Positions 37,401-52,734 of a DNA stretch of 64,000 nt are shown in pieces; position 1 is the stretch's first letter, and every line of letters starts with the position of its first letter. Below the pieces are notes generated by a model, which was not told where the DNA came from, did not search any database, and saw nothing but the letters and a program-made list of their open reading frames with translations. The stretch lies in assembly GCA_017609625.1 (NCBI GenBank), contig JAFCDN010000004.1:948-64947 (forward strand), written 5' to 3'. The translations under genes were made by a program, and so were the position numbers. The DNA comes from Candidatus Iainarchaeum sp. GTDB lineage: Archaea > Iainarchaeota > Iainarchaeia > Iainarchaeales > 1-14-0-10-31-34.

Positions 37401-40400
37401 ATGGCTGGAACAAAAGAAACACAAATCCAAAAAAATCAGGAAAAATCTGTAATGCCAAAAACAAAAGAAACATCAGCAAAACAGATTTCAGCTGAAACTC
37501 TGGCAAAAGAATTCAAAGAACACTCTGTAGCAGAATTCTTCAAAAAAAACAGGCAAATGCTTGGATTAACAGGAAAAATCAGAACACTAACAACTATTGT
37601 GCACGAATATGTAACTAACAGCGTAACAGCTGATACCCCAACAGTAATAAGAGAAACTGGAGAAATGAAAATTGAAAGAATAGGAAAAATAGTTGACAAT
37701 TTGATGGAAAAAAATGGCTTTGAATGTTCCCAAAAACAAGAACTTGAATCTTTAAGAGATTTTAAGAAATTTGAGGTTTTATGTTTTGACAAAAAAACAA
37801 ACAAATTAAATTTCAAACCAGTAAAATCTATTCACAGACACCAAATGGGTTTAGAAGAAAAAATCTTTAAAATAAAAACTGTAGGGAACAGAACAGTTGA
37901 AGCAACAAAACACCACGGATTATTTACTCTAAGAGAAGGAAAGGTAACCGAAATAAAAGCAGAAGAACTATCAATTGGAGATTATTTAGTAGTTCCAAGA
38001 AAGAGTTGGATCGAAGAAACAAAAAAAGAAATAAACCTTTTAGAAGAAGCTTTAAAGTTGAGTGCTGAAGAATTAAAAGAGTTTAGTATTTTTGGAATAA
38101 AAGAAATTCTCTACAAAAATGAAGAACTTAAAAACAAAATAAAATCTCAATTAACAAAAAAACAAAGACATTATGATTTTTACAGAAATTATATGAAATG
38201 CAATAGATTGCCTATTAGGCTGTTAAAAATACTAAATGAAGAAGAAATAAAATATTTCTGTAACTGCTATATTGGAGCAAGACATTGCAAATACAAATTG
38301 CCAACAAAAATGCCGATAACAAAAGAACTAATGCATTTTTTGGGTTTGTATGCAGCTGAAGGAAGTACAAGAAAAACAATTGCAAATCCTTCACTATCTT
38401 TCGGTTCTCATGAAAAAGAACTAATTGAATACAGCTCTTTCTTAATCAAACACTTATTTGGATTTAACCCCCCACAAAGAAAAGCACACAACACAGCAGT
38501 CAATGTTGAAATGCCTTCAAAAACTGTATCCTTTATTTTAACAAAAATATTTAAATGTGGTTTTGGAGCCAGAGAAAAGAAAATTCCGGGAATTGTTTTT
38601 AGCACTTCAAAAGAACTTGCAAAAGAATTCCTGTTTGCATATTTAGCAGGAGATGGTTATCCCTCAGCAAAGATTTTTAGGAAACTGTTAAACGGAGATT
38701 TTAATTTAAAAGAAAAAATTGTTTTGGTTACAGGAAGCAAAGAATTCTCTATTGAAATTCAGTACCTCTTATCAGGCACAGGTTATTCATACAGTTTCAG
38801 TGAAAAAGAAGCAGAACAAAGAATTGTTGCAGGGAAAAAAGCTAATTTTGGAAAAGCCTACAAAATAGAATTTTACACAAATCAGAAAAATTCTCCATTA
38901 AGCTTTTTCCCACTTGAAATTGGAGGAATTCAAGCAGTAATTGAACCAAAACTTAAATGGGCAATAAACAAAAGAGGACAACAAACAGCCAGTTATGAAA
39001 AAATTGCTTCATTGAAACTAAACCAAGCAAAGGTTTCAGAAGAAACAGTGAATTTTATCGGAGGAGATTTAGGGTTATTGCAAATAAGTGAAATAGAAGA
39101 AAGAATTCCAAAAGAAAAAGAATATGTTTATGATTATTCAGTTGAAAACGACGAAAACTTTGTTGGGGGCTATGGAGCAATTTGCTTGCATAATTCAATT
39201 GATGCATGCGAATCTGCAAACATTCTTCCAGAGATTGAAATAAAAATCCAGGAATTAGGAAGTGAATCCTATGAAGTAACAATCAAAGACAATGGCCCTG
39301 GACTGACTAAAGATACTGTAGGAAAAGCTTTAGGGCAGTTGTTGGCAGGAACAAAATTCCACAGAATGATTCAGTCAAGAGGACAGCAGGGAATTGGAGC
39401 GGCAGGAGCAACAATGTATTCTCAGACAACAACAGGAAAACCAGTTAAAGTTATTTCAGGAACAGGAAAAGGAAAAGCTTTTTCTCTTGAATTAACAATT
39501 GACCCGAAAAAGAACCAGCCAAAAATAGAAAATTTCCAGGAGTTAGATAAAGAATTCAAAGGCCTGGCAATAAAAGCAAAAGTAAAAGATGTATTATATA
39601 GAATTTCAGAGCAGGGGCCTTTAGAATACGTCAGAAGAACTGCAATTGCAAACCCTCATGTTCAAATCAGCTTAATTGATCCAATAGGGCAAAAAACTTT
39701 ATTCAAAAGAAGCTCTAACAAGATTCCAAGGGCTCCAAAAGAAATTAAGCCTCATCCAAAAGGAATTACAGTAGATGAATTAGTTACAATGGCAAAATAT
39801 TCTGATGCAAGAAAAGTAGGCTCTTTTTTGAAAAACTCTTTTGACAGAATGGGAGACAACGCAATACAGGGAATAACCAAAATGGTTTCTTTTGATATGA
39901 ACATGGATCCAAAAAAAATGGAATGGAGTGATGCAGAAGAAATAATCAAAGCAATAAAACAGATTAATTTTATTGCTCCAACAACAGAAGGTTTAAGCCC
40001 GATAGGAGATGCACAAATTGAAACTTCACTTAAATCAATTGTCCAGCCAGAATTTTTAAAAGTTATTACAAGAAAAGCGCAGGTTTACAGCGGAGGATTT
40101 CCTTTCCAAGTGGAGGTTGCAGTTGCATTTGGAGGCAATGCAGGAAGAAGCTCTGGAAACGGAAACTCAGAAGAACATTTAAAGAGAATGGAAACAATGC
40201 GTTTTGCAAACAAAGTTCCATTGCTTTTTGATTCTGGAGGCTGTGCAATAACAAAAGCAGTGCAGACAATTGACTGGAAAAGATATGGAATACAAAATAT
40301 TGATGAAGCTCCATTAACTGTTTTTATTAATGTAATTTCAGTTCATATTCCTTATACTTCAGCAGGAAAACAGGCAATCTCAGATGAAGTTGAAGTACTG

Positions 40401-40754
40401 GAAGAAATCAGACTTGCATTGATGGATTCCGGCAGAAGAATTGCAAGGCATATTATCGGAAAAAAAAGAGAAAAAGAAAAACAAGCAAAGAAAAAAATGT
40501 ATATGAAATACGCAGTTGAAGTTGCAATTGCTTTAAGCGAATTAACAGGAAAAAACAAGCAGGAAATAGAGAAAAAATTATTAAATACTGTTTTGAAAAG
40601 ACTTAAAATGGAAGAACAAGAAGAAAAAAAAGAATTAAGTGATGAACAAATAGAAAAAGAAGTTGAAAAAGAAGCAAAGAAAAAAGAAAAAGCAGAAGAA
40701 AAAAAGAAAGGCAAAAAAACAGCAAAAATAAAAGGATTAAAGAAAGTAAAATAA
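37401..40754 (+). CDS. top6B: DNA topoisomerase VI subunit B with intein
   Basis: Bergerat ATP-binding fold (EYVTN[S...intein...]IDACE, IKDNGPGL, GQQGIGAAGA), transducer domain, K/E-rich C-terminal tail; extein about 592 aa. Confidence 0.85.
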   Translation: MAGTKETQIQKNQEKSVMPKTKETSAKQISAETLAKEFKEHSVAEFFKKNRQMLGLTGKIRTLTTIVHEYVTNSVTADTPTVIRETGEMKIERIGKIVDNLMEKNGFECSQKQELESLRDFKKFEVLCFDKKTNKLNFKPVKSIHRHQMGLEEKIFKIKTVGNRTVEATKHHGLFTLREGKVTEIKAEELSIGDYLVVPRKSWIEETKKEINLLEEALKLSAEELKEFSIFGIKEILYKNEELKNKIKSQLTKKQRHYDFYRNYMKCNRLPIRLLKILNEEEIKYFCNCYIGARHCKYKLPTKMPITKELMHFLGLYAAEGSTRKTIANPSLSFGSHEKELIEYSSFLIKHLFGFNPPQRKAHNTAVNVEMPSKTVSFILTKIFKCGFGAREKKIPGIVFSTSKELAKEFLFAYLAGDGYPSAKIFRKLLNGDFNLKEKIVLVTGSKEFSIEIQYLLSGTGYSYSFSEKEAEQRIVAGKKANFGKAYKIEFYTNQKNSPLSFFPLEIGGIQAVIEPKLKWAINKRGQQTASYEKIASLKLNQAKVSEETVNFIGGDLGLLQISEIEERIPKEKEYVYDYSVENDENFVGGYGAICLHNSIDACESANILPEIEIKIQELGSESYEVTIKDNGPGLTKDTVGKALGQLLAGTKFHRMIQSRGQQGIGAAGATMYSQTTTGKPVKVISGTGKGKAFSLELTIDPKKNQPKIENFQELDKEFKGLAIKAKVKDVLYRISEQGPLEYVRRTAIANPHVQISLIDPIGQKTLFKRSSNKIPRAPKEIKPHPKGITVDELVTMAKYSDARKVGSFLKNSFDRMGDNAIQGITKMVSFDMNMDPKKMEWSDAEEIIKAIKQINFIAPTTEGLSPIGDAQIETSLKSIVQPEFLKVITRKAQVYSGGFPFQVEVAVAFGGNAGRSSGNGNSEEHLKRMETMRFANKVPLLFDSGGCAITKAVQTIDWKRYGIQNIDEAPLTVFINVISVHIPYTSAGKQAISDEVEVLEEIRLALMDSGRRIARHIIGKKREKEKQAKKKMYMKYAVEVAIALSELTGKNKQEIEKKLLNTVLKRLKMEEQEEKKELSDEQIEKEVEKEAKKKEKAEEKKKGKKTAKIKGLKKVK
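37620..39194 (+). mobile_element. intein (525 aa) with LAGLIDADG homing endonuclease domain in Top6B
   Basis: inserted within the conserved NSxDA motif; starts SVTADTPTVIRETGE (Ser1); TKHHG block B; LAGLIDADG-like motifs FLGLYAAEGS and LFAYLAGDGY; ends ICLHN|S. Confidence 0.75.
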
Positions 40755-41988: not shown

Positions 41989-42594
41989 ATGCGTTTAAGA
42001 ACTCTTTTCAGAATCTCGGATGTAAGACTATTATTAACAGTTTTAATACTGATAATTTTTTATGTTTACGACAAGCTTAATGTGCAGAATCTTCCCTTGC
42101 TTATTGCAATTCTAATTGCCACGTACTTGCTTTCTTCCTTTATTGTGATTTATGCAAGAAGATTCAGAAAATTCTATAAAGGAACTGCAATTGCTTTTGA
42201 TATGGGGGGAGTGTTAACTAAAGGAGAATATTTTACTGAACAGATAGAAGAAATTCCTGGAATGAAAGATTTAATGAAAGAACTAAAAAAACACCATTTG
42301 ATTGCAATCTGTTCAAACAACAACTGGGAAGCATATTTAGCTCATGAAAAAAAATACGGCTGGGATGAGATATTTGATGTAGAAGTTTTATCAGGAAAAT
42401 ACGGAATACAAAAACCAGATCAAAGAATCTACAAGATTTTGTTGAAAGAGTTGGGGGTTAAACCTCAAAACTGTGTTTTTGTTGACGACAGAGAAGAAAA
42501 TGTCAATACTGCAATCAAATTAGGAATGAAAGGAGTTCTTTTTACTTCCCGCGCAGATTTAATTCAAAAACTTAGAAAATGGAATTACTTATAA
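41989..42594 (+). CDS. HAD-superfamily hydrolase with N-terminal TM helices
   Basis: motif I FDMGGVL, motif IV VFVDDREENV; 201 aa. Confidence 0.55.
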   Translation: MRLRTLFRISDVRLLLTVLILIIFYVYDKLNVQNLPLLIAILIATYLLSSFIVIYARRFRKFYKGTAIAFDMGGVLTKGEYFTEQIEEIPGMKDLMKELKKHHLIAICSNNNWEAYLAHEKKYGWDEIFDVEVLSGKYGIQKPDQRIYKILLKELGVKPQNCVFVDDREENVNTAIKLGMKGVLFTSRADLIQKLRKWNYL

Positions 42595-43527
42595 AGTAGT
42601 AATCGGCCTTGTCTGAAGAATAAATAATTTGTCTTTTTCTAATCCAAACTCTATATCCTGCGGAAAATTATAATGTGCTTCAATTTTTTTGCATAGCCCT
42701 GCTAACTCAATTATTTTTTGTCCTGAAAGTTTCTGGTTTTCCTGTTCTGAAGTTTTAACTTTCACTTTCTGTGTTTTTCCTGCTTTCAAAGTCAGCAGGT
42801 GTTCCTGCTGGTTTACTTCAATATTTTCAATAAACATTTCTTTTTTGTTTACAACGTATTTATCCGGAGTGACTGCGCCGGAAACAACGCTTTCACCTAA
42901 ACCAAAAGCGGCTTCAATTATTATTTCTTCTCTGTTTTTTGTTATTGGATTTACTGTAAATACTACCCCGCTTGATTCTGATTCAACCATTTTTTGCACT
43001 ACTACTGCTACAGCAACTTTTTTTGAACTAAGTTTTTTTTCTATTCTGTAAAAAATCGCTCTAGGGGTAAACAAAGAACTCCAGCATTTTTTTACTGCTT
43101 GTATCAGCCCTTTTTTTTGGATATGCGTGTATGTTTCTAATTCTCCTGCCCATGAAGCATCTTTTGCATCTTCTGCTGTAGCAGAGCTTCTTACAGCAAC
43201 ATAATTTGCTTTCAGTGAAGAGAATTCTTTTAGAATTGATTTTTCTATTTCTGCAGGAACTTTTCCTTTTCCAATCTGTTTTCTAATATTCTCTGAAGCT
43301 TTGTTTACTGAATCAGTTTTTTTTGGATTAACTTTTTTTAATTCAGCTTTAATCACTTTTTCCAATTGATTTGCTTCTATAAAGTAGTTGAATGAATCCA
43401 CTAAAACAACAAAACCATCTGGAACAGGAATTTTTGAATTAAACATTTCTCCTAACTGCGCTCCTTTGCCTCCAGCAATTGAAACGCTTTTTTTATTGAG
43501 TTTTTTGAAAGGCTGAACAAAATTCAT
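42589..43527 (-). CDS. stand-alone PEP-synthase/PPDK-type ATP-grasp nucleotide-binding domain protein (PPDK_N)
   Basis: 312 aa; N-terminal SIAGGKGAQLGEM...IPVPDGFVV is the hallmark of the PEP synthase / pyruvate phosphate dikinase / rifampin phosphotransferase ATP-binding domain; ends ...ILQTRPIT with no His or TIM-barrel domains. Confidence 0.75.
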   Translation of the reverse strand: MNFVQPFKKLNKKSVSIAGGKGAQLGEMFNSKIPVPDGFVVLVDSFNYFIEANQLEKVIKAELKKVNPKKTDSVNKASENIRKQIGKGKVPAEIEKSILKEFSSLKANYVAVRSSATAEDAKDASWAGELETYTHIQKKGLIQAVKKCWSSLFTPRAIFYRIEKKLSSKKVAVAVVVQKMVESESSGVVFTVNPITKNREEIIIEAAFGLGESVVSGAVTPDKYVVNKKEMFIENIEVNQQEHLLTLKAGKTQKVKVKTSEQENQKLSGQKIIELAGLCKKIEAHYNFPQDIEFGLEKDKLFILQTRPITTL

Positions 43528-43549
43528 TTTCTCAACTCCATTTATTAAC

Positions 43550-44992
43550 TCACTTGAGTTTTTTAATTATTCCTTTTTTTGCATCAACTTCAATTAAATC
43601 ATTATCTTTAAGCAAATCTGTTGCGTGTTGGGTTCCAATAATACAAGGAATCCCAAATTCTCTGCTTATAATTGCAGCATGAGAAGTCATTCCTCCAGTA
43701 TCAGTTACTATTGCTGCAGCTTTTTTTATTGCTGGAACTAAATCAGGAGTAGTCATTGGAGAAACCAAAATGTTTCCTTTCTTCATTTTTGAAAGGTCTG
43801 ATGGCTTGAAAATTATCTTTACTTTTCCTGAAACTTTTCCCATGCAGGCTATTGTTCCTTTAATTTCGGCTTCAGGTTTTTCAAAATTCAGATTTTTCAT
43901 GAATTTTTTTCCTTTTAATCCAACATAAATAAACTGTTTTTTTCCTTTTTGAACATAAACCGAGTAATTCCATCTTTTCTTTAATTCTTTTCTCCATTTT
44001 TTAGGATTGCTTAAGGCTTTTTCTAATTCTTCTGCAAACAGATATCTGCTTTCTTTTAATTTAACTCCAATTCTTTTTGAAATCTCTTTTAATAAAGGTT
44101 CCATTAAATAAAGTGATTTAGACATCAAGCCTTTTCTGTATTCTTTAAAATAAGCTAATTCTCCTAACAGCAAAGCCATTTTCACTCCTTTAGTTTTTTT
44201 TGCTTTCTTTCTTGTTTTTTGAACTTTTATTTTCTCAGAGTTTATGGCTTTAATTATTTTTTCAGGTTTTTTTAGGCATTCTTTCAGAATTTTTTCAAAT
44301 TCTTTTTTTTCTAATTGATTTCCTTCATAATCATATGGAAGCCATTTCCATTCTTTAATATGTTTTTCAAAGTCTTTCCAGAACTTGCTTTTTTTGAATT
44401 CTTTGAATAAAGTGATTTTTTTCTTTTTTGCTTTTAATGCCAGCTTTGTCAATTCAAGTTTGTTTTTTGTTTCCCAAGAAAAACCCGCTGGAACAGATAA
44501 AACAGTAATAAGTTTTGTTGCTTTTTCAAACCCAAACTCTTTTTTTAATTGTTTTGAAGCCATTTTTTCCAAAGAAAAATCACACATAAAAGGAATTGCT
44601 GCAGGAATATAAGCATCAGAATAAGCTTTGCAGTATGCTTTGAATAATTTATTTAATCCTAAATTAGTTGTTTTTTTGTTAACTTTATTTGCTTTTCTTG
44701 CAACCTTAAGCAATTTTTTATTTCTTTTTTCAAAATCTTTCAACACTTTTTTTAATAAAAGTTTTTTTGAAACAATTTTTTCTGCTATTTTGTTTCCGCT
44801 GGAATGAAAATCTTCTCTGACAAAATAGCCTTTACTTTTTCCTTTTTCAAAATCAGTTAAAACGATTTTTTGTGAAGTTCCTGCATAACTTTTAATTCTA
44901 TTTGTAAAAACATCAAACAACAAATTGATTGGAAACAGACTGAGCTTTAGAGTGTATTGTTTATAGAACCCAGCTGAAGGCGTTTTTTTCAT
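43550..44992 (-). CDS. paralog 5 of 5: novel N-terminal domain + C-terminal PEP-utilizing phosphohistidine swivel domain
   Basis: 480 aa; C-terminus GNILVSPMTTPDLVPAIKKAAAIVTDTGGMTSHAAIISREFGIPCIIGT matches the PEP-utilizers mobile domain with the catalytic His; 4-nt overlap with the upstream paralog. Confidence 0.7.
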   Translation of the reverse strand: MKKTPSAGFYKQYTLKLSLFPINLLFDVFTNRIKSYAGTSQKIVLTDFEKGKSKGYFVREDFHSSGNKIAEKIVSKKLLLKKVLKDFEKRNKKLLKVARKANKVNKKTTNLGLNKLFKAYCKAYSDAYIPAAIPFMCDFSLEKMASKQLKKEFGFEKATKLITVLSVPAGFSWETKNKLELTKLALKAKKKKITLFKEFKKSKFWKDFEKHIKEWKWLPYDYEGNQLEKKEFEKILKECLKKPEKIIKAINSEKIKVQKTRKKAKKTKGVKMALLLGELAYFKEYRKGLMSKSLYLMEPLLKEISKRIGVKLKESRYLFAEELEKALSNPKKWRKELKKRWNYSVYVQKGKKQFIYVGLKGKKFMKNLNFEKPEAEIKGTIACMGKVSGKVKIIFKPSDLSKMKKGNILVSPMTTPDLVPAIKKAAAIVTDTGGMTSHAAIISREFGIPCIIGTQHATDLLKDNDLIEVDAKKGIIKKLK

Positions 44993-46476
44993 TTTTTCGC
45001 CCTCTTTAGTATTCTGATTATTCCATGATATGCGTCTAATTCTATTAGGTCGTTATCCTTTAAATATTCTGTTGCTTTTTGAACCCCAACAACACATGGT
45101 TTGTTTAATTCCCTTGAAACAATTGCTGCATGACATGTCATTCCACCCTGCTCTGTAACTATTCCTGCCGACCTTTTCATTGCAGGAACTAATTCAGGCT
45201 GGGTTGCAAGAGAAACCAGTATTTCTCCTTCAAATAATTTATCCATTTCTTCAATGCTGTTAACTATTTTTACTTTTCCTTTAATCAACCCAGGAGAAGC
45301 AATCTGGCCATTTAACTGGTTTTTCTTTTTTGAAACTTTTTCTCTTACAACCAGTTCATGGAATTTTTTTCTGGCTTTTTCTCCGAAAAAAACCTTGTCT
45401 CCGTTAACATCTGAAACCACAGTCATTAATTTGCTTCTTTTAAGCAGTTCTTTTTGGTTAAAAGGAATTTTTTTCATCAAATGTTCTCTTAATTCTCTTC
45501 TGGTTAAAAATCCCAAAAGGTTTTTTGGGATAAAATGTTTTTTTGAAACTACTTTGCATAACTTTGAGATTAAATAAAAAGAGCAAACCATAATTTCTTT
45601 TCTAAATCCTTTCAAAAAAATTATTTCCCTAGCTAAATCAAAAAAATATTCATCTTCTCTGCTTAACTTTAATTTTTTTTTTGCTTTTCTTATTTTTTTC
45701 TTTAATTCTTTTTTTTCTGTTTTGATTTTTTTTAGGTTGTATTCCAGTTCACTGCTTTTAATCAAATCCTTTATTTCTTCTTTATAGAATTCAATTGAAG
45801 CTTCAGGCCCGTTAAAACCAAAAGTTATCCACCCAAAGTTTTTTCTGTGCGCTTCCAATAATTTGTTTTTTTGCTTTTCTCTTAATTTTTTTGTTTTGAA
45901 TTTTTTTGAGATTAAAAGCAGTGCTTTTCTTTCTTTTGAAGAGAAAGTGTCATCTAACGGAGCAGTCAAAACTGAAAAATAATCTGCGCTTCTTTTGCTT
46001 AACTGTCTTTCTGAAATCAGCTTAATAAGTTTTTTGTTTAAATGATTTGTTAGAAGGTTGTTCCAGAAATCTATCCCAACAAAAGTCCAGCCGCTGTAAG
46101 TAACGTTTTTGTCGTATTTGTAAATCAAATCAAGGTATTTTACAATCTGCTTGTCTGAAAGAGAGTTTAAATCCATTGAATTGAATTTTTTCAGCAGATT
46201 AACCATTTTTTCTGCATAAAAAAAATGAATCTTTTTTTCTTTCCAGATTTTTTTCCTGTTTTTTTTGTATAACTTAAACTGGTGTTTTCCTACTTTAGCC
46301 CACCAATTAACATCCTGAGCCCATTCAATATGGCCTTTCTCCAATCTTATTACAGTGCACGGAGAAACACTTCCAAAAGGCTTTTTTGCGGTTTTTTCAT
46401 TCCATTCATCACAGTTAAAAGAATAGGCAAAGTAATTTGCATCAAATTCATGGATTGTAATCTGCAGTTTTTTCAT
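44989..46476 (-). CDS. paralog 4 of 5: N-terminal domain + PEP-utilizing phosphohistidine domain
   Basis: 495 aa; C-terminus ...GGMTCHAAIVSRELNKPCVVG; shared internal motifs (FxxLTxP, GWxxFGxxGP, LKGxRKE) with the other paralogs. Confidence 0.7.
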   Translation of the reverse strand: MKKLQITIHEFDANYFAYSFNCDEWNEKTAKKPFGSVSPCTVIRLEKGHIEWAQDVNWWAKVGKHQFKLYKKNRKKIWKEKKIHFFYAEKMVNLLKKFNSMDLNSLSDKQIVKYLDLIYKYDKNVTYSGWTFVGIDFWNNLLTNHLNKKLIKLISERQLSKRSADYFSVLTAPLDDTFSSKERKALLLISKKFKTKKLREKQKNKLLEAHRKNFGWITFGFNGPEASIEFYKEEIKDLIKSSELEYNLKKIKTEKKELKKKIRKAKKKLKLSREDEYFFDLAREIIFLKGFRKEIMVCSFYLISKLCKVVSKKHFIPKNLLGFLTRRELREHLMKKIPFNQKELLKRSKLMTVVSDVNGDKVFFGEKARKKFHELVVREKVSKKKNQLNGQIASPGLIKGKVKIVNSIEEMDKLFEGEILVSLATQPELVPAMKRSAGIVTEQGGMTCHAAIVSRELNKPCVVGVQKATEYLKDNDLIELDAYHGIIRILKRAKK

Positions 46477-48008
46477 TCTTTTCCGCTCTTTAATTTTTTA
46501 ACTATTCCGTGGTTTGCATTAACATTAATCAAATCTCCGTCTTCGAATACTTTTGTAGCAATTTTTGTTCCGATAACACAAGGTGTGTTTAATTCTCTGC
46601 TTACTATTGCAGCGTGGCATGTTACTCCTCCGATATCTGTTACTATCGCAGAAGCTTTTTTCATTGCAGGGACAAGGTTTGGATTGGTTGCATGAGAGAC
46701 AAGAATGTCCCCTTCATTCATTTTCTTCATTTCTTCCGGAAGGTTGATTATTTTTGCAATTCCTTTAACCATTCCAGGAACTGCAGTACTTCCCTCCAGT
46801 TTGGTTATCTTGTATTCTTTTGGACTCGGAACCTGCTTAGCATAAAATTCTGCTTTTTTCCCCGTCAATGTCTTGCTTTTCCCATTAATGCAGATATAAA
46901 CGCTAAACCTGAATCTCTCATTCAATTCTTGCGGATTAAAAGCATTCTTCAGAATTGCGTTTTTGAATTCGCTTGGCCAAATACATCTTAATTGATTAAG
47001 TGAAAGCCCAAGTCTTTTTCCTACTTCTCTTAAAAAAGGCTCATAAGAAAAAAAAGAATAGTAAAGTGAATCTTTTCTCAAACCTTTCAGGTAAATAATC
47101 TGCCTTGAAATATTTAATAACTTCTGGTGTTTAACATCAACTGAAAGTTTTTGAACAAGTTCTTTTTGTTTTTCTTTAACTTTAACAATCCGCTCACTCA
47201 TTTTTTCCAAAAGCAAGGCAAGATTTTCTTCTGATTTAATTAAGCCTTTAATCTGTTGGATAAAATAATCTTTTTCCCAAGCAGGGCCAATATACATATA
47301 AGGAAGCCATCTGAAATTAATGTAATGATTTTCAATTTTTTTGCTGATTTTTTTATTTATTAAAGGAAGCAGTTTAATGATTTCCTCTGGTTCTTTTTCA
47401 AGAAAAAGTTTTCTTGTTTCAGTATCATTTAACACAATTAAAGAAAGCTCTATGATTTGTTTTTCCTGTTTAAGCTGAAAAGATTCATTGTGAGGGGTTG
47501 TCAGCAGGCTGAACACTTCTGCAACTCTTAAAGAAAGTTTTTTTTCCTCAATTTTTTGTTTTAAATATTTTTTTAAGTAATTTGAAAGGAGTTCATGGTC
47601 CCATTCAATCATTGTGGGAAGCATTCCAAAAACATGGCATTTACTGTGAATTTGCATATGTTTGGAAAAAACTTTTTCCAGCTCTTTTTTTGACATCACA
47701 GAAAAATCTGTTTTTTTCATTTTTTTTGAGCTTTCAATTAATTTGCCTGCTGTCTTTTCCAAGAGTCTATTTATTTTAATCAGCCAATCTGGATTGCTTA
47801 AAGTTTTTTCAAAAGTTTTTTTTCCCGCTGCAGTAAACTTTTTTCTTGGCCAACAAAAAAATACGTTTCCTTTCTCAAACACAGACAAAACATCAATTGT
47901 CATACCAATATCTTTTTTCATTCCTTTCCCCCAATATTCGTAAACAGGTTCAAGCAAATGAAAATGTGTTTTTGGAATCTCTTCTGCAATAAACCAGTCT
48001 TTTTTCAT
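46473..48008 (-). CDS. paralog 3 of 5: N-terminal domain + PEP-utilizing phosphohistidine domain
   Basis: 511 aa; C-terminus ...GGVTCHAAIVSRELNTPCVIG; clear similarity to paralog 2 throughout. Confidence 0.7.
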   Translation of the reverse strand: MKKDWFIAEEIPKTHFHLLEPVYEYWGKGMKKDIGMTIDVLSVFEKGNVFFCWPRKKFTAAGKKTFEKTLSNPDWLIKINRLLEKTAGKLIESSKKMKKTDFSVMSKKELEKVFSKHMQIHSKCHVFGMLPTMIEWDHELLSNYLKKYLKQKIEEKKLSLRVAEVFSLLTTPHNESFQLKQEKQIIELSLIVLNDTETRKLFLEKEPEEIIKLLPLINKKISKKIENHYINFRWLPYMYIGPAWEKDYFIQQIKGLIKSEENLALLLEKMSERIVKVKEKQKELVQKLSVDVKHQKLLNISRQIIYLKGLRKDSLYYSFFSYEPFLREVGKRLGLSLNQLRCIWPSEFKNAILKNAFNPQELNERFRFSVYICINGKSKTLTGKKAEFYAKQVPSPKEYKITKLEGSTAVPGMVKGIAKIINLPEEMKKMNEGDILVSHATNPNLVPAMKKASAIVTDIGGVTCHAAIVSRELNTPCVIGTKIATKVFEDGDLINVNANHGIVKKLKSGKE

Positions 48009-49528
48009 TTTTTCAGCCTCTTAATTACTCCTTTTGTTGCATCAACCTCTACTTTTTCGCTGTCTTTTAGGATTTTTGTTGCAACTTTTGTGCCAATAAC
48101 ACAAGGAATATTCAATTCACGAGAAACAATTGCCGCATGGCATGTAATTCCCCCTATATCAGTTATTATTGCCCCTGCTTTTTTCATTGCTGGAACCAAA
48201 TTCGGATTGGTTGAATGAGAAACCATTACATCTCCTTGATTCATCTTAAAGATTTCGTTTGGATGGTTTACTACTTTCACTCTGCCTTTAACAAAGCCAG
48301 GAACTGCAGTGCTTCCAAACAATTTGTTTGTTTTTTTTATTTTTATTGACTTGAAAACTTTATTGAAAAAAGCTCTTGCTTTTTTTCCTGACAAAATTTC
48401 TTCTTTTTTATTAATCCATTTAACTATAACAAAATCTATTCTGCTGTTCAACTCTTTTTCAGAAAAATTTTTGTAAAGTAAAGCAGGCTTTAATTCTTCT
48501 GGAAGAAAAAATCTTGCCTGAGTTAAAGAAAGATGCAGTCTTCTTCCAATTTCCCTAAAAAGTTTTTCTGAGACAAAACAGGAAAAATACATTGCATCTT
48601 TTCTATAGGCTTTCAAGTAAACTGAATCAGACAATATTTTGAAGTAAAGTTTTTCTTTTTCAGCTAAAGGCAGTTTTTTCATGAAATTCTTTTTTTTCTT
48701 TATTAAGCTTTTTGGCTCTCCTTTCCTTAATTTTATTTCTTCTTTTGTTAAGTATTGTTTTGCCATAGAAGACAAAATTTCAATAAAATAAGCTTTATTC
48801 CACGCAGGGCCTTCATACATAAAAGGCAGCCACAGCCATTTATTATAGTGCTTGTTTAATTTTTTTGAAAAAACAGGAAAATTTGAAAGTTGTTTTTCTA
48901 TTTCTTTTTCTGATTTCTTTCTGAACAAATTAAATAAGTTTGGTTTTGAAAGCAGTTCTAAATACAGATTAAAAATTTCTTTTTCCTGTTTTTGCATATT
49001 GGAGAGTTTTTCAGGAGTTGAAACCAAAGAAAAAGCTTCTGCAAGAGATTCATTTAAATCATATCTTTCAATTTTTTTCTTTAAAACTGACTGAATGAAC
49101 TTAGTGTACAATTCATTTTCCCATTCAGTTAACTGCAAAACATGCCCTCCATTGCTGTGCGAAAGAGCATAACTTTTAATGTATTCTGCAGCCAAATCTG
49201 CAAGTTTTTTGTCTGAAATTTTTTTCAGGTTTGTTTTAAGGATTTTCTGGGAAACTTTTTTGTATTTTCTTGCAAACTTCAGCAGATTCTTGTGTTCTTC
49301 TTCAACTAGTTCAGGGTTTTTTACTATTTTTTTTATTAAGCTTTTCGCGGCTTTATCAAATTGTTTTCTGTCAAACAAAATTTCAGTATTTTTTGAATGA
49401 AAAGAACATGCTCCGTCAATTCTTATCCCGTACTTTTCTTTTAATTCAACACAAACATATCTCTGAAATGCAAGCATGTGAGCAGGATGAAGTTTTCTGA
49501 TGGATTCCATTGAAAACCATCTGCTCAT
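48005..49528 (-). CDS. paralog 2 of 5: N-terminal domain + PEP-utilizing phosphohistidine domain
   Basis: 507 aa; C-terminus ...GGITCHAAIVSRELNIPCVIG. Confidence 0.7.
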   Translation of the reverse strand: MSRWFSMESIRKLHPAHMLAFQRYVCVELKEKYGIRIDGACSFHSKNTEILFDRKQFDKAAKSLIKKIVKNPELVEEEHKNLLKFARKYKKVSQKILKTNLKKISDKKLADLAAEYIKSYALSHSNGGHVLQLTEWENELYTKFIQSVLKKKIERYDLNESLAEAFSLVSTPEKLSNMQKQEKEIFNLYLELLSKPNLFNLFRKKSEKEIEKQLSNFPVFSKKLNKHYNKWLWLPFMYEGPAWNKAYFIEILSSMAKQYLTKEEIKLRKGEPKSLIKKKKNFMKKLPLAEKEKLYFKILSDSVYLKAYRKDAMYFSCFVSEKLFREIGRRLHLSLTQARFFLPEELKPALLYKNFSEKELNSRIDFVIVKWINKKEEILSGKKARAFFNKVFKSIKIKKTNKLFGSTAVPGFVKGRVKVVNHPNEIFKMNQGDVMVSHSTNPNLVPAMKKAGAIITDIGGITCHAAIVSRELNIPCVIGTKVATKILKDSEKVEVDATKGVIKRLKK

Positions 49529-51012
49529 GCTTTCACCTTTCTTATAATTCCTTTTCCTGCGTCTATTTCAATTAGTTCATTATTCTTTAAAACTCTTGTA
49601 GCAATTTTGGTTCCAATCACACACGGCTTTTTAAATTCCCTGCTCATTATTGCAGCATGAGAAAGCATTCCTCCTTCGTCAGTTATTATTGCAACAGCTT
49701 TTTTCATTGCAGGAACAAACTGAGGCAAAGTAGTTCCTGCAACTAAAACATAGCCTTTTGGGAAGGAAGGTAAATCATTCATTGAATTAACTAACTTAAC
49801 TTTTCCTTTAACTTTTCCAGGAAAACCTGTTTCTCCTTGAATCTCAATCATTTCCTGGATTTTTTTCAATTCAGCCAAATAAGGTTCAGAATATTCTTTC
49901 AGTTCTCTTCCAACCAAAACCCTGACTTTTCCTTTCTCAAAAATTAATGCATGACCTTCTTCTCTTGCATTTATTTCATCCAAATGTTTTTTAGTTAAAG
50001 GTTTTTCAAAAAGAGAAAGAAGCTCTTTATTCTGCATTTCAACTATTTGGTTAAAGGAAAGAGAAAATCTTTTTGCTGTTTCAATCATAAAAGGTCTCAT
50101 CTTAAAGGCAACAAAAGAATAGTATTCATCACAAAGAGTTGAAGCATATAAAGCAAAACGAATATTCTTTATTTTTTGTTTTTCTTTTTCTGAAAGATTC
50201 AGCTTAAGCACCATTTCTTTTACTTGTTCTCTGTTTCTCTTGAAACGGTTCTTTTCTTCAAAAAGCTCTTTTTCCAACTTTGAAACTGGTTTTCTGATCA
50301 GCTTTTCCATTTTTTTTTCAAAATCTTTTTCGGTTAAAGGCTCGCCGTCATACATGTACACTCCAAAAAAACCAAATTTTCCAGCATGCTTTTTCAGTTC
50401 TTTGTTAAACAATCCTTTGCTTAATCCTTTCCTCTTTTTTACAGCGATTTTAAGCAAATTAATTTTCTCTTTATGCATTTCAATAGGTTTATACAAACTC
50501 AGTATTGTTTCCATATAATTGTTTAATTTTTTAGGGTTGCTGACTTTTTCTTTCAGAAAAGCAATTATTTCTTGAGGGTAATATTCCTGCAAAACTCTGT
50601 AATCATAAGTAAAGGCAAAAACCTTCACATATAAATCAAAATACTTTTTAAACAGACTTTTAAGTTCTTTATTTGATTTTTTCTCTAGATTCATTCTGTT
50701 TAGCTTTTCAGAAAACTTTTTTGCTTTAATGAATTCATTAAACCAGGACTGCATCCAAGGAATAATTTTGTCTTCATTTTTTTTGCACATTTGAATATAA
50801 TTTTTCCAGTCTTCTGTGGAAACTCCCCTTCCACCAAAAGCCTGTCTGTAAGTTTTTATTTTAGTTTTTTTGTCATGGAATTCAGTGAAATGGTCTTTTA
50901 GTCCGTAAGCAACTGCATCCACAACCAAAATATTAACAGGTTTTCCTTTTCTGCTGAACTCTATCCAATCCATAATTAAACCTTTTTTGGCTTTGCTTTT
51001 TTTTGGATTCAT
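49525..51012 (-). CDS. paralog 1 of 5: N-terminal domain + PEP-utilizing phosphohistidine domain
   Basis: 495 aa; C-terminus ...GGMLSHAAIMSREFKKPCVIG; most divergent N-terminal region; first gene of the operon. Confidence 0.7.
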   Translation of the reverse strand: MNPKKSKAKKGLIMDWIEFSRKGKPVNILVVDAVAYGLKDHFTEFHDKKTKIKTYRQAFGGRGVSTEDWKNYIQMCKKNEDKIIPWMQSWFNEFIKAKKFSEKLNRMNLEKKSNKELKSLFKKYFDLYVKVFAFTYDYRVLQEYYPQEIIAFLKEKVSNPKKLNNYMETILSLYKPIEMHKEKINLLKIAVKKRKGLSKGLFNKELKKHAGKFGFFGVYMYDGEPLTEKDFEKKMEKLIRKPVSKLEKELFEEKNRFKRNREQVKEMVLKLNLSEKEKQKIKNIRFALYASTLCDEYYSFVAFKMRPFMIETAKRFSLSFNQIVEMQNKELLSLFEKPLTKKHLDEINAREEGHALIFEKGKVRVLVGRELKEYSEPYLAELKKIQEMIEIQGETGFPGKVKGKVKLVNSMNDLPSFPKGYVLVAGTTLPQFVPAMKKAVAIITDEGGMLSHAAIMSREFKKPCVIGTKIATRVLKNNELIEIDAGKGIIRKVKA

Positions 51013-51045
51013 TCCACTGTATATGGAAATTCAAATAAATAAAGC

Positions 51046-51063
51046 TTGCCTTTTGAAAGGCAA
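51046..51063. promoter_or_regulatory. palindrome TTGCCTTT-tg-AAAGGCAA upstream of the five-paralog operon
   Basis: perfect 8-bp arms located 34-51 nt upstream of the paralog-1 start codon (51012). Confidence 0.35.
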
Positions 51064-51066
51064 ACT

Positions 51067-51453
51067 TTAGATTCCGCCTCTGACACCTTTTAATCTGCAC
51101 CAAGGCATCTTAGGGCCAACAATAACCGGATCCTGTTTTTTTGGATCCATTATTACAACGTTTTTTCTTGCGTATTTATTCCATCTGCTCCAGCTCTTTA
51201 AATAATTAAAATGAGTTCTGATCATAAAAAAGAAAAGCAAACCAGCAACAATAACTAAAGCATTATTGAATAAAGACTGCCATAAGAAAAGCAAAAAAAC
51301 AAGAGTAAAAATCCAGAACATAATCCAGTAATAAAGTTCAGAGGTTTTATGGGAAAAATATTTTCTTCCAACTTCATCTCTTTTTTCTCTAGGCAAAGTT
51401 TTAGGGTCAATATTCATGTCAGTTGCATGACCTCTAATCATTTTCAAACTCAT
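51067..51453 (-). CDS. small membrane protein
   Basis: 128 aa; two TM helices. Confidence 0.35.
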   Translation of the reverse strand: MSLKMIRGHATDMNIDPKTLPREKRDEVGRKYFSHKTSELYYWIMFWIFTLVFLLFLWQSLFNNALVIVAGLLFFFMIRTHFNYLKSWSRWNKYARKNVVIMDPKKQDPVIVGPKMPWCRLKGVRGGI

Positions 51454-51478: not shown

Positions 51479-51820
51479 TCAGTTTCTTCCTCCGACTCCG
51501 TCTACTCTTGTAACAAACTTTGACTCCCAAATCTGCTTGTCATCCAGCTTGTCTCCATAATCAAACTGGGCTTTTAAAGTTAAAGGCAGTAAAGGAACCA
51601 AAAACAACAAAAACAACGGATTAAATAAAATACTTGAAACAACAACAACTCCATCCAAACCCATAAAAGCAAAATATTTTCCTTTCAATGATTCAACTAA
51701 AAAAAACCAGTCAAAGTATTCTTTTACAATTCTTTTTCTGGTTTTATATTCCAAATCTTTAGGGTTAACTGTAACCTCAAAATTTTCAGATTCAATTAAT
51801 CTTAAAGGAACTTCTTTCAT
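51479..51820 (-). CDS. small membrane protein
   Basis: 113 aa; hydrophobic central segment. Confidence 0.3.
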   Translation of the reverse strand: MKEVPLRLIESENFEVTVNPKDLEYKTRKRIVKEYFDWFFLVESLKGKYFAFMGLDGVVVVSSILFNPLFLLFLVPLLPLTLKAQFDYGDKLDDKQIWESKFVTRVDGVGGRN

Positions 51821-51844: not shown

Positions 51845-52065
51845 TACATAATAGCGCAGGCAGGCTTAAAAGAAATTTACCCGATTTATAACGGGTTTAA
51901 AACCAGTGCAAAAAGCCGTTATATAACGGCTTTCGCCAGTTTTGGTTGGCAGGTACTAGACACCACGCTTTGCATGGGGCTAGCACGGCTGAAAGCCGTC
52001 ACCGTTACACCCACACGGAAGCGGGTCATGCGTCGGTACTCGCGCTCAAAAGCGCGATGATAAAA
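51845..52065. ncRNA. candidate structured ncRNA (class unassigned)
   Basis: about 220-nt GC-rich island (about 50% GC in 30% GC DNA) with multiple perfect hairpins (CCCGATTTATAACGGG, GCCGTTATATAACGGC, GCGCTCAAAAGCGCGC, GGCTGAAAGCC); no ORF. Confidence 0.3.
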
Positions 52066-52068
52066 CTA

Positions 52069-52734
52069 TTACCTTCCAAACGTGTTTTCCAGAATAAAAG
52101 GCATTAATTTTTCTTCTGCTTTTCTTAAGTGCTCCTGAAAGGTTGAAGGAGATACTTTCATTGTTTTGCTAAGTCTTTCTATGTTTGTTTTTCTTGGATA
52201 TTCATAATAGCCTTGTTGATAGGCTATTGAAACAGCGTTTTTTTGCTTTTCTGTGAGCTTTGGCATTAAATGAGGCAGGTAGATATCTGTTACTTTGTCT
52301 TTTTTTATGCTGAAATCATATATCTTTAGCCATTTCTTTACTTTTTTCATGAAATTTGTAAGGTTTTTTTTGTCCCAAGAACCAAACTCTATATACTCAT
52401 AGCCGTCTGGTTTTACTGTAACCGGCTTAATGAAAAAAATCTCTGGAGTGAAATACATCTGCAAATGAGTTTCTTTTACAGGAGCTTCATAAGCATAAAC
52501 TACAAAATCTCCTTCTATTTCTACGTTTTTGTATTTGGGTTGTTTTTTTACAAATTGAAAGTATTTTTCTTTTCCTTTTTTGTCTCCAATCACTAAATGC
52601 CCTGCAGTTAAGTGAACTGTTTTTTCATCTATAACAGTATTTAACGGAAAAGCTAAAATCGTTACATTAAATTTTTTGGCTGCCTCTATTGCTAAAGAGT
52701 TCTTATGCCAGAACTTCATTTTTGCTACCCACAT
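52069..52734 (-). CDS. HTH_10 (Bat-like) domain transcriptional regulator, putative
   Basis: 221 aa; C-terminal YYEYPRKTNIERLSKTMKVSPSTFQEHLRKAEEKLM resembles the HTH_10/Bat DNA-binding domain. Confidence 0.4.
   Translation of the reverse strand: MWVAKMKFWHKNSLAIEAAKKFNVTILAFPLNTVIDEKTVHLTAGHLVIGDKKGKEKYFQFVKKQPKYKNVEIEGDFVVYAYEAPVKETHLQMYFTPEIFFIKPVTVKPDGYEYIEFGSWDKKNLTNFMKKVKKWLKIYDFSIKKDKVTDIYLPHLMPKLTEKQKNAVSIAYQQGYYEYPRKTNIERLSKTMKVSPSTFQEHLRKAEEKLMPFILENTFGR

What the first reader, a model, noticed from the sequence alone, without database searches (positions are those of the whole stretch)
42589..51063. Split, paralog-expanded PEP-synthase / rifampin-phosphotransferase-like phosphotransfer system
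The locus reads as a six-gene operon on the minus strand.

- **Paralogs.** Five consecutive genes of about 480-510 aa overlap start to stop by 4 nt (ATGA junctions at 44989, 46473, 48005, 49525). Each ends in a PEP-utilizing mobile phosphohistidine domain (GGMTSHAAI.SRE...PC.IG) with the catalytic His conserved in all five. The five are clearly paralogous along their whole length, sharing motifs such as AE.FSL.TP, W.PF.Y.GP and YLKG.RKD, but their ~400-aa N-terminal regions are strongly diverged.
- **ATP-grasp subunit.** The operon ends with a separate 312-aa protein that is only the PEP-synthase/PPDK N-terminal ATP-grasp nucleotide-binding domain (GGKGAQLGEM...PVPDGF).
- **Comparison.** In PEP synthase, PPDK and rifampin phosphotransferase the ATP-grasp, a substrate-binding domain and the swivel His domain are fused in one polypeptide. 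Here the ATP-binding module is a single stand-alone subunit, and the N-terminal domain plus His-domain half is expanded to five variants. No PEP/pyruvate TIM-barrel domain is present.
- **Inferred function.** One ATP-grasp subunit probably charges five alternative His-domain carriers, each targeting a different substrate. This could be xenobiotic or antibiotic phosphorylation, or regulatory phosphotransfer.
- **Novelty.** This architecture is not described in the literature I know of.
Basis: partly seen in the sequence, partly recalled or inferred. Interest (0 to 1): 0.85.

Follow-up and report, generated by a model that had tools for sequence, protein, structure and literature searches.

The report
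One ATP subunit, five phosphate-carrier paralogs
A tiny symbiotic archaeon encodes one ATP-binding subunit next to five diverged partner enzymes that probably each phosphorylate a different, unknown molecule; the split enzyme type is already known, but this one-to-many layout is common in ultra-small microbes, undescribed, and often mislabelled as PEP synthase.

Summary
Six minus-strand genes (42589-51012) encode a stand-alone PPDK_N ATP-grasp protein and five colinear paralogs that each end in a PEP-utilizers swivel-His domain. They are joined by four ATGA overlaps.

The locus is therefore a two-component RPH-type small-molecule dikinase.

What I did not find described is the one-to-many layout. 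Arrays of 2-9 carriers with one ATP-grasp gene recur in DPANN archaea and CPR bacteria, and the N-domain family has about 4,000 clusters at 50% identity. Paralogs form conserved orthogroups: N-domains are 52-77% identical between orthologs but 23% between paralogs, while His domains are about 55% identical.

Paralog 5 belongs to a conserved subfamily lacking the catalytic basic motif. An HTH_10 regulator, two small membrane proteins and a candidate operator also belong to the locus.

Substrates are unknown. Verdict: new variant of a known kind, moderately interesting.

The parts
42589..43527 (-). Stand-alone ATP-grasp (nucleotide-binding) subunit 'G', 312 aa; last gene of the operon
   Evidence: PF01326, E=2.9e-97. 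210 bits to the RPH ATP-grasp domain and 233 bits to P. furiosus PEP synthase. The RPH ATP-site residues K22, R117 and T136 are conserved as K21, R113 and T132 (residues from PMC4844700). All 120 best homologs are 212-347 aa (the shortest annotated as partial) with PF01326 only.
43550..44992 (-). Carrier paralog 1 (480 aa): RPH-type substrate-binding N-domain plus swivel-His domain. Its motif FKEYRKG retains the Glu of RPH R666-E667
   Evidence: PF00391, E=2.1e-27. Residues 229-479 align to RPH-like model PRK06241.1-3 positions 640-889. No ortholog above about 37% identity in the fetched loci.
44989..46476 (-). Carrier paralog 2 (495 aa), motif FLKGFRKE
   Evidence: PF00391, E=1e-25. Best relative 42% identical, in L013. 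ATGA overlap with paralog 1.
46473..48008 (-). Carrier paralog 3 (511 aa), motif YLKGLRKD; the modelled reference
48005..49528 (-). Carrier paralog 4 (507 aa), motif YLKAYRKD
   Evidence: PF00391, E=1e-23. Orthologs 68-71% identical in L001 and L005-L007.
49525..51012 (-). Carrier paralog 5 (495 aa), an active-site variant. It has S-x-x-C-D-E in place of K-x-x-R-K, GGMLSHAAI in place of GGxTCHAAI, and a subfamily motif YRQAFGGRG
51013..51066 (-). Spacer holding a hairpin (TTGCCTTT-CAAA-AGGCAA) followed by TTTATTTATTT; possibly a terminator for the upstream genes and/or a TATA-like internal promoter
   Evidence: Sequence read directly. A TTTATTTAT-like element is also present in the equivalent spacers of L001 and L005. 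Function is inferred only.
51067..51453 (-). Small membrane protein (128 aa, two predicted TM segments), paralogous to the next gene
   Evidence: Conserved at the same position in L001, L005 and L013, E 1e-22 to 3e-68. Hydropathy. An analogous pair of small paralogous membrane proteins lies upstream of the L002 array.
51479..51820 (-). Small membrane protein (113 aa); probably the first gene of the operon
   Evidence: Conserved in L001, L005 and L013, E 4e-27 to 1e-55. A promoter-like TATTATGTATA plus GGTGG is conserved upstream in L001.
51881..51929 (.). Candidate operator: two copies of CCG-(AT-rich 8)-CGG, namely CCGATTTATAACGG at 51881 and CCGTTATATAACGG at 51916
   Evidence: The motif occurs once per locus, only in the spacer between the HTH_10 gene and the first membrane-protein gene, in L001 (7533), L005 (4554) and L013 (6919).
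52069..52734 (-). HTH_10 transcription regulator (221 aa); the likely local regulator
   Evidence: PF04967, E=3.6e-21. Homologs lie directly upstream, on the same strand, of carrier genes in L001, L005, L009 (twice), L010, L011, L012, L013 and L014.
41989..42594 (+). Membrane-anchored HAD-IA hydrolase, convergent with and overlapping the ATP-grasp gene by 6 nt; a possible but weakly supported accessory phosphatase
   Evidence: PF00702. Conserved in the syntenic loci L001 and L005. A HAD gene is co-directional within a Patescibacteria system (L025), but the two HADs are only 21% identical.

Best explanation
The locus encodes a 'hub-and-spoke' version of the two-component RPH-type small-molecule dikinase.

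1. The single ATP-grasp subunit binds ATP and transfers its beta-phosphate to the swivel-domain histidine (His465 in paralog 3) of any of the five carrier proteins, releasing AMP and Pi. This step is inferred from the HpeHI, PpsAB and RPH precedents.
2. Each phospho-carrier swings its His domain back onto its own N-terminal domain, which has the fold of the RPH rifampin-binding domain. There a basic motif (K308, R311 and K312, aligned with RPH R666 and K670) helps pass the phosphate to a bound acceptor. This step is also inferred.
3. The five N-domains are only about 24% identical to one another but 52-77% identical to their orthologs in other genomes. Each is therefore maintained for a different acceptor.
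4. Paralog 5 has lost the basic motif in a conserved way. It probably performs different chemistry or acts as a non-catalytic phospho-carrier or regulator.
5. The adjacent HTH_10 protein, with its conserved upstream motif, probably controls transcription. The two small membrane proteins may tether the system to, or couple it with, the membrane.

The acceptors are unknown. Scavenged host metabolites and xenobiotics or antibiotics are the leading candidates.
For: Shown:
- Domain content.
- Profile alignment to RPH residues 613-866 places K308 and K312 on catalytic R666 and K670, and H465 on H825.
- The ATP-site residues are conserved in the ATP-grasp subunit.
- The T/SxxGGxxxH motif of two-component dikinases is present in all five paralogs.
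- His is conserved in 59 of 59 array members across 22 distinct sequences, the window plus 21 loci.
- Same-strand arrays of 2-9 carriers with one ATP-grasp gene occur in L001, L003, L005-L007, L009, L010, L012, L015, L016, L025 and L026.
- In three genomes His domains are 54-56% identical between paralogs against 23% for N-domains, while orthologs keep 52-77% N-domain identity.

Precedent:
- HpeHI needs both components, its His mutant is dead, and HpeH alone transfers phosphate between substrates (PMC12167813).
Against: - There is no direct evidence that the ATP-grasp subunit phosphorylates any of the carriers, let alone all five. A complex could not be modelled with the tools available.
- Some genomes carry more than one ATP-grasp gene: the MAG behind L006 and L007 has at least two.
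- Some carriers have no ATP-grasp gene within 10 kb: L002, L017-L020 and L023.
- RPH Glu667, which is critical for the second transfer, is replaced by Gly or Ala in paralogs 2-4.
- A dikinase spends two ATP equivalents per phosphorylation, which is costly for an energy-poor symbiont.
- No acceptor can be named from sequence.
Confidence: 0.6

Rival explanations
1. The system is regulatory or a phosphorelay rather than metabolic. The carriers would be ligand- or DNA-binding regulators whose His phosphorylation state, set by the ATP-grasp subunit, controls gene expression or other proteins, as in PspR or PTS-regulated transcription factors.
For: - PspR of Haloferax mediterranei is an RPH-like protein shown by ChIP and EMSA to act as a repressor (PMC10948481).
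- About 600-aa CPR family members carry an N-terminal HTH_20/MarR-like domain fused to the carrier: P0087 and P0101.
- An HTH_10 regulator is tightly linked to the arrays in Micrarchaeota.
- Paralog 5 lacks the catalytic basic motif but keeps the His.
Against: - Four of the five window paralogs keep the basic motif aligned to the RPH phosphotransfer residues.
- None of the window paralogs has a recognisable DNA-binding domain.
- An adjacent regulator is just as well explained as an ordinary operon regulator.
- Five to ten regulators of one type is a lot for a genome of about 1 Mb.
Confidence: 0.15
2. The system is a resistance or detoxification battery. The carriers would inactivate different antibiotics or toxins by phosphorylation, as RPH does for rifamycins. 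This is a specific sub-case of the dikinase model.
For: - RPH is the closest solved structure.
- Stogios et al. predict that distant clades phosphorylate other small molecules.
- rph-like genes have been counted as resistance genes in CPR genomes (PMC8651080).
- Paralog expansion is typical of detoxification families.
Against: - The scores are far below the RPH equivalog cut-off: 40-70 bits for the carriers and 280 bits for the ATP-grasp subunit, against 999.
- The rifampin-binding part of the domain is not alignable at sequence level.
- The paralogs are stable orthogroups under purifying selection, not rapidly turning-over copies.
- The loci show no mobile-element or defence-island context, no PADLOC hit and no viral copies.
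Confidence: 0.15
3. It is a genuine but split, or a degraded, PEP synthase (pyruvate, water dikinase) for gluconeogenesis, as automatic annotation suggests.
For: - The best NCBIfam hits by name are PEP synthase models.
- JGI labels homologs 'pyruvate, water dikinase'.
Against: - There is no PEP/pyruvate-binding TIM barrel (PF02896) in any of the six proteins or elsewhere in the window.
- Scores are 92-330 bits, against cut-offs of 598 and 740.
- The carrier N-domain has the RPH fold, not the PEPS fold.
- There are five complete His domains, not colinear fragments.
Confidence: 0.02

Closest known systems
Two-component small-molecule dikinases HpeHI, CreHI and PpsAB (phenylphosphate synthase)
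   Same: Both have a separate ATP-grasp subunit plus a subunit carrying an RPH-type substrate domain and a C-terminal swivel His. Both have the T/SxxGGxxxH motif and lack a PEP/pyruvate domain.
   Different: - The known systems are 1:1 pairs in aromatic-catabolism operons of ordinary bacteria. Here the ratio is 1:5, and up to 1:9 elsewhere, in DPANN/CPR.
- The known carriers are PRK08296-type, whereas the window N-domain matches those models only in the His domain, and hhalign probability to such carriers is at most 3.5%.
- The window ATP-grasp subunit is closer to RPH and PEPS than to the stand-alone chain 9goj_A, which is probably HpeI.
- The window His domains keep the PEPS-type Thr at position H-2.
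Rifampin phosphotransferase (RPH, PDB 5HV1/5FBS)
   Same: - The ATP-site residues are conserved.
- The K/R...K catalytic block and the His align.
- Some members of this same N-domain family are fused in the RPH order, e.g. P0199, 829 aa.
   Different: - RPH is a single polypeptide.
- Identity is only 16-17%.
- Glu667 is not conserved in most paralogs.
- The rifampin-binding region is not alignable at sequence level.
PEP synthase / PPDK
   Same: The ATP-grasp and swivel-His domains are most similar in sequence to archaeal PEP synthase: 233 bits for the ATP-grasp subunit and 157 bits for the carrier-family profile A3, which matches through its His domain, both against 8a8e. The dikinase chemistry is the same.
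   Different: There is no PEP/pyruvate TIM barrel, the domain order differs and the proteins are separate.
PspR, the RPH-like repressor of Haloferax mediterranei
   Same: It is an archaeal member of the RPH superfamily with a non-enzymatic regulatory role, and the systems here are linked to HTH regulators.
   Different: PspR is a fused three-domain protein whose ligand domain binds DNA. The window carriers have no demonstrated or predicted DNA binding.
Bacterial PTS (Enzyme I, HPr, many Enzyme II)
   Same: The logic is similar: one general energy-coupling protein with a swivel-His mechanism serves many substrate-specific components. The His domains are homologous.
   Different: The donor is ATP rather than PEP. 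There is no HPr, EIIB or EIIC, and no transporter is identified.

Membership tests
Two-component small-molecule dikinases (HpeHI/CreHI/PpsAB) | Stand-alone ATP-grasp component homologous to the RPH ATP-grasp domain | tested here: met
   PF01326, E=3e-97. 210 bits to RPH residues 4-316. K21, R113 and T132 are conserved.
Two-component small-molecule dikinases (HpeHI/CreHI/PpsAB) | Second component made of an RPH-type substrate-binding domain followed by a C-terminal swivel-His domain with T/SxxGGxxxH | tested here: met
   [not shown]
Two-component small-molecule dikinases (HpeHI/CreHI/PpsAB) | Sequence-level kinship of the carrier with HpeH, CreH and PpsA (about 45% identity among themselves; PRK08296-type) | tested here: not met
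   PRK08296 models match only the last ~105-130 residues of the window paralogs, but match the full length of the Thermomicrobium carrier and the C-terminal ~300 residues of the B. cereus carrier. hhalign of the N-domain profile against those carriers gives probabilities of 3.5% and 0.6%. HpeH, CreH and PpsA themselves were not available for direct comparison.
Two-component small-molecule dikinases (HpeHI/CreHI/PpsAB) | One carrier gene per ATP-grasp gene | tested here: not met
   Five carriers to one ATP-grasp gene here, and 2-9 to one in related loci.
Two-component small-molecule dikinases (HpeHI/CreHI/PpsAB) | Both components required for ATP-dependent phosphorylation, with AMP and Pi as products | not testable with these tools
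   This needs biochemistry.
Rifampin phosphotransferase (RPH) | ATP-grasp, RIF-binding and swivel domains in one polypeptide, scoring above the equivalog cut-off | tested here: not met
   The proteins are separate. NF041857 scores are 280 bits (ATP-grasp subunit) and 40-70 bits (carriers), against a cut-off of 999.
Rifampin phosphotransferase (RPH) | Catalytic block R666-E667...K670 plus H825 | tested here: inconclusive
   K308 aligns with R666, K312 with K670 and H465 with H825. The Glu is present only in paralog 1 (FKEYRKG). The whole block is absent from paralog 5.
PEP synthase (pyruvate, water dikinase, TIGR01418/K01007) | C-terminal PEP/pyruvate-binding TIM barrel (PF02896) and a score above the equivalog cut-off | tested here: not met
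   No PF02896. TIGR01418 scores are 312 bits (ATP-grasp subunit) and 92-124 bits (carriers), against a cut-off of 739.75.
PspR-type RPH-like transcription regulators | Promoter DNA binding by the ligand domain | not testable with these tools
   No DNA-binding domain was detected in the window paralogs. HTH-fused relatives exist in CPR.
Known anti-phage defence systems (PADLOC) | A match to any defence-system protein model | tested here: not met
   No hits for any of the eight proteins.

The most novel reading that the evidence does not exclude
The array is a general ATP-driven, PTS-like 'one hub, many spokes' phosphotransfer network characteristic of ultra-small symbionts (DPANN archaea and CPR bacteria). 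One conserved ATP-grasp subunit energises a changeable set of carriers. Each carrier irreversibly traps a different metabolite scavenged from the host, possibly at the membrane through the two small membrane proteins. Variant spokes such as paralog 5 and the HTH-fused forms would act as regulators. If this is right, many 'PEP synthase (K01007)' calls in genomes that lack glycolysis, such as 54 of 54 Pacearchaeales, are really this system, and it is a core part of the symbiotic lifestyle.
Probability: 0.2. Interest if true: 0.8.

Novelty: new variant of a known kind. Interest (0 to 1): 0.55.

Why it matters
**Scale and investment.** The carrier N-domain defines a large family with no Pfam model: 3,986 clusters at 50% identity score E<=1e-3. 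In the hits that carry names, it is concentrated in DPANN and CPR. Genomes of about 1 Mb devote 5-10 genes to it, so it is probably important for their lifestyle.

**Annotation risk.** The proteins are routinely labelled PEP synthase or 'pyruvate, water dikinase'. That label can create false gluconeogenesis calls. It may also explain the puzzling retention of 'PEP synthase' in genomes that have no glycolysis.

**Mechanism.** A single ATP-grasp subunit serving many carriers would extend the two-component dikinase concept to a modular network, and it would give a defined set of proteins for substrate discovery.

**Evolution.** The ATP-grasp subunit is 55% identical between an archaeon and a Patescibacteria bacterium. 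This points to exchange of the module between the two radiations.

Tried and rejected
- **N-domain sequence searches.** A profile of the five N-domains against PDB sequences gave nothing above noise, and Pfam has no family for it.
- **Failed or unavailable tool runs.** The degenerate-pattern scan with the five-paralog alignment failed for lack of a conserved stretch, so I built a closer alignment, A4. The resulting genome scan used a narrow pattern and returned only 19 loci, mostly Micrarchaeota, so it is not a census. The window's own contig was not retrievable by exact protein look-up. The AFDB Foldseek library was unavailable.
- **Defence or viral origin.** There were no PADLOC hits and no relatives on viral contigs.
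- **A phosphohistidine phosphatase as a constant partner.** His_Phos_1 genes flank the arrays only in L002 and L003 and are barely similar to each other. The small proteins next to the ATP-grasp gene in L026 and L027 have no such match. Rejected as a general component.
- **The HAD hydrolase as a co-transferred partner.** The window HAD and the L025 HAD are 21% identical and generic HAD-IA. Weak.
- **GC-rich spacer as a known RNA.** No Rfam family reached threshold, and the best E-value was 0.06, a chance-level match. It is absent from the L001 spacer and not repeated elsewhere.
- **Fragmented ppsA.** Rejected.
- **Literature.** Searches for any description of multi-paralog arrays in CPR or DPANN found none. 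The library is incomplete, so this is absence of evidence only.


Full report
**1. The observation**

The stated region holds six tightly packed minus-strand ORFs. They are a 312-aa protein (42589-43527) and five proteins of 480-511 aa (43550-44992, 44989-46476, 46473-48008, 48005-49528, 49525-51012).

The four junctions between the five larger genes each read ATGA, a 4-nt stop/start overlap. A 22-nt gap separates the last paralog from the 312-aa gene.

Pfam finds PPDK_N (PF01326, E=2.9e-97) across the whole 312-aa protein. It finds the PEP-utilizers mobile domain (PF00391, E=1e-22 to 2e-27) in the last ~70 residues of each paralog, and nothing in their first ~400 residues. No PEP/pyruvate TIM barrel is present.

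The five paralogs align colinearly at 28-33% identity to paralog 1, and each has the catalytic His in GG..[SC]HAAI. Each carries a full His domain, so they are not pieces of one ppsA gene. The only corrections concern the end coordinate, and the quoted N-terminal motifs, which are not shared by all five.

**2. What the proteins are**

*Sequence level.* A profile of the five N-domains hits nothing in PDB.

*Structure level.* An AlphaFold2 model of paralog 3, built on 86 homologs, is confident (pLDDT 93, pTM 0.87).

*Catalytic residues.* A family profile aligns to RPH residues 613-866. In native 5FBS numbering:

| This family (paralog 3 numbering) | RPH residue |
|---|---|
| K308 | R666 |
| K312 | K670 |
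| H465 | H825 |

Stogios et al. identify these as the residues of the second phosphotransfer (PMC4844700). RPH Glu667 is matched by Glu only in paralog 1 (FKEYRKG against RPH YREYPKY).

*ATP-grasp subunit.* The stand-alone subunit keeps the three RPH ATP-site residues shown by mutagenesis to be essential: K22, R117 and T136 correspond to K21, R113 and T132.

The six genes therefore encode the three RPH domains split over two kinds of polypeptide, with ATP-grasp alone in one and substrate-domain plus swivel-His in the other.

**3. The split is already known**

Dexter et al. (JBC 2025, PMC12167813) describe HpeHI. [quoted passage not shown]
- HpeI is a crystallised stand-alone ATP-grasp protein.
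- HpeH combines the RPH-type substrate domain and the swivel domain.
- Both components are required, the His mutant is inactive, and the motif T/SxxGGxxxH is conserved.

All five window paralogs carry that motif (TD.GG...H).

I also found ordinary 1:1 pairs in annotated plasmid records. One sits in an aromatic-catabolism-like cluster of Thermomicrobium roseum. The other lies inside an NRPS cluster of Bacillus cereus.

**4. What differs from the known systems**

*(a) Stoichiometry.* My own HMM census of the window and 26 distinct fetched loci (27 locus ids; L004 duplicates L001) shows same-strand arrays of carriers with a single ATP-grasp gene:

| Locus | Source | Carriers | ATP-grasp genes |
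|---|---|---|---|
| window | this archaeon | 5 | 1 |
| L001 | syntenic relative | 2 | 1 |
| L005 | archaeon MAG | 5 | 1 |
| L006 | Micrarchaeota MAG | 4 | 1 |
| L007 | same MAG as L006 | 5 | 1 |
| L009 | Micrarchaeota MAG | 3 | 1 |
| L015 | bin labelled Gammaproteobacteria | 9 | 1 |
| L003 | CPR 'Kazan' bacterium | 8 or more | 1 |
| L026 | 1.03-Mb CPR contig | 4 | 1 |

One Micrarchaeota MAG (L006, L007 and L008) has at least 10 carriers and at least 2 ATP-grasp genes.

*(b) Sequence family.*
- The window paralogs match the PRK08296 models only in the His domain. Those models match the full length of the Thermomicrobium carrier and the C-terminal ~300 residues of the B. cereus carrier.
- Profile comparison of the N-domain with those carriers is insignificant: hhalign probability 3.5% and 0.6%.
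- An exhaustive profile search finds 3,986 cluster representatives at 50% identity with E<=1e-3, and 2,439 with E<=1e-10.
- Named hits are Micrarchaeota, Diapherotrites, Woesearchaeota and Patescibacteria.

*(c) Fission and fusion within the family.*
- P0199 (829 aa) has the order ATP-grasp, N-domain, His, as in RPH.
- P0122 (2,309 aa) carries four His domains and one ATP-grasp domain.
- CPR forms of about 600 aa carry an N-terminal HTH.

*(d) The ATP-grasp subunit.* It is a tight family. All 120 best hits are 212-347 aa (the shortest annotated as partial) with PF01326 only, and they are 54-84% identical. One example is 55% identical between this archaeon and a Patescibacteria bacterium.

**5. 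Evidence that the paralogs are functionally distinct and share one partner**

- Within the window, N-domains average 24% identity and His domains 56%. L005 and L007 give the same figures, 23% and 56%.
- Paralogs 3, 4 and 5 have orthologs in L001 and L005-L008 with 52-77% N-domain identity. The duplications therefore predate these lineages, and each N-domain is kept under its own constraint.
- Paralogs 1 and 2 have no close ortholog among the fetched loci.
- This pattern is what one expects if all carriers must dock on the same ATP-grasp surface but bind different acceptors. It is indirect evidence, because trans-phosphorylation was not tested and a complex could not be modelled.

**6. Paralog 5**

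- In the window, paralog 5 alone replaces K-x-x-R-K with S-x-x-C-D-E and GGxTCHAAI with GGMLSHAAI. Its orthologs in L005, L006 and L007 show the same replacements.
- Its subfamily is small, with eight relatives at 53-68% identity plus one distant member. It is strongly conserved and has its own N-terminal motif, YRQAFGGRG.
- It is not a decaying copy. It either uses different chemistry or acts as a phospho-carrier or regulator.
- A few other array members also lack the basic motif: L007_1662, L009_8296, L011_3788 and L015_9987.

**7. The locus is larger than reported**

- Two small paralogous membrane proteins (51479-51820 and 51067-51453) lie upstream on the same strand. Beyond a 248-nt spacer lies an HTH_10 regulator (52069-52734).
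- The membrane proteins recur in L001, L005 and L013. The regulator lies directly upstream of carrier genes in at least eight Micrarchaeota loci.
- A distant archaeal array (L002) also begins with a pair of small paralogous membrane proteins.
- A motif CCG-(8 AT-rich)-CGG occurs once per locus, always in the spacer between the regulator gene and the first membrane-protein gene, and twice in the window. It is a candidate operator.
- Promoter-like TATTATGTATA and GGTGG elements before the first membrane-protein gene are conserved in L001.

**8. Function**

No acceptor can be inferred. Accessory phosphohydrolases appear near some arrays but not consistently:
- HAD in the window, L001, L005 and L025.
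- His_Phos_1 in L002 and L003.
- HD in L003.

There is no defence-system signature and no viral copy.

Three facts bear on the biological role:
- HpeHI has sub-micromolar Km values, and its authors interpret it as a scavenging enzyme.
- PspR shows that an RPH-like protein can become a repressor.
- RPH-like genes in CPR genomes have been counted as resistance genes.

I favour a multi-acceptor dikinase. Metabolite trapping and detoxification are the candidate roles, and a regulatory role is plausible for variant members.

**9. Annotation consequence**

JGI names the 312-aa homologs 'pyruvate, water dikinase' and names the carriers 'phosphoenolpyruvate synthase/pyruvate phosphate dikinase'.

A 2026 preprint reports 'PEP synthase (K01007)' in 54 of 54 Pacearchaeales genomes that lack glycolysis, and calls its role uncharacterised. 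Those calls may correspond to this system. I could not test that.

**10. Verdict**

- The one-to-many arrangement, the distinct N-domain family, its abundance in DPANN and CPR, and the conserved active-site variant are, as far as the searchable literature shows, undescribed.
- I rate it a new variant of a known kind, with interest 0.55.

Noticed in passing
window 51900-52060 (spacer between the HTH_10 gene and the first small membrane gene): A ~150-nt island of 51-60% GC in a ~32% GC genome, made of several strong hairpins (z about -3.7 on both strands). It is absent from the equivalent spacer of the syntenic locus L001, is not repeated in the window, and matches no Rfam family. It could be a small RNA gene, an inserted element or a terminator cluster.
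   Followed up: partly
window 51881-51894 and 51916-51929; L001 7533, L005 4554, L013 6919: The motif CCG-(8 AT-rich)-CGG (CCGTTAT-N3-ATCGG) occurs only in the spacer upstream of the operon in four related loci. It is a candidate binding site for the adjacent HTH_10 regulator.
   Followed up: partly
window 52786-53328 (-): A 180-aa protein with eight consecutive KKTAR repeats at its N-terminus, giving a weak, sub-threshold match to the histone H1-like HC2 family. It is possibly a chromatin or nucleic-acid-binding protein. A homolog of similar size (168 aa) lies at the same position in L001.
   Followed up: no
window 37401-40754 (+), 28933-32631 (+), 24772-28029 (-): Three essential genes each carry an intein: topoisomerase VI subunit B, MCM helicase and anaerobic ribonucleotide reductase NrdD. 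Two of the inteins have LAGLIDADG endonuclease domains. That is an unusually high intein load for a 64-kb stretch.
   Followed up: no
window 16214-16357 (-): Rfam reports a 144-nt tRNA match (41 bits) that ARAGORN did not report. It is probably an intron-containing archaeal tRNA.
   Followed up: no
P0122 (2,309 aa), P0123 (1,500 aa), L016 8471-11482: Some family members are single chains holding 2-4 complete carrier units, and in P0122 an ATP-grasp domain as well, as if a whole operon were fused. They could be real polyproteins or gene-calling artefacts.
   Followed up: partly
L003 13683-15895, L015 3140-4228 and 7282-8367, L002 5643-6713, L024 12198-13376: CPR and DPANN arrays also contain shorter (350-390 aa) His-domain proteins whose N-terminal region is not detected by the N-domain HMM, or is only partly detected. 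This is a second carrier type that is absent from the window.
   Followed up: no
L029 (Bacillus cereus plasmid p1) 4941-7545: A 1:1 two-component dikinase pair sits between an NRPS gene and thioesterase and PPTase genes. This suggests phosphorylation of a non-ribosomal peptide product or precursor.
   Followed up: no
window 41989-42594 (+): The HAD hydrolase convergent with the operon has two N-terminal transmembrane segments. Its motif I reads FDMGG, so it lacks the second Asp typical of HAD phosphatases.
   Followed up: partly
window 42589-43527 vs L025 13239-14177: The ATP-grasp subunit is 55% identical between this archaeon and a Patescibacteria bacterium. That is much higher than expected across domains and suggests DPANN-CPR gene exchange.
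   Followed up: partly
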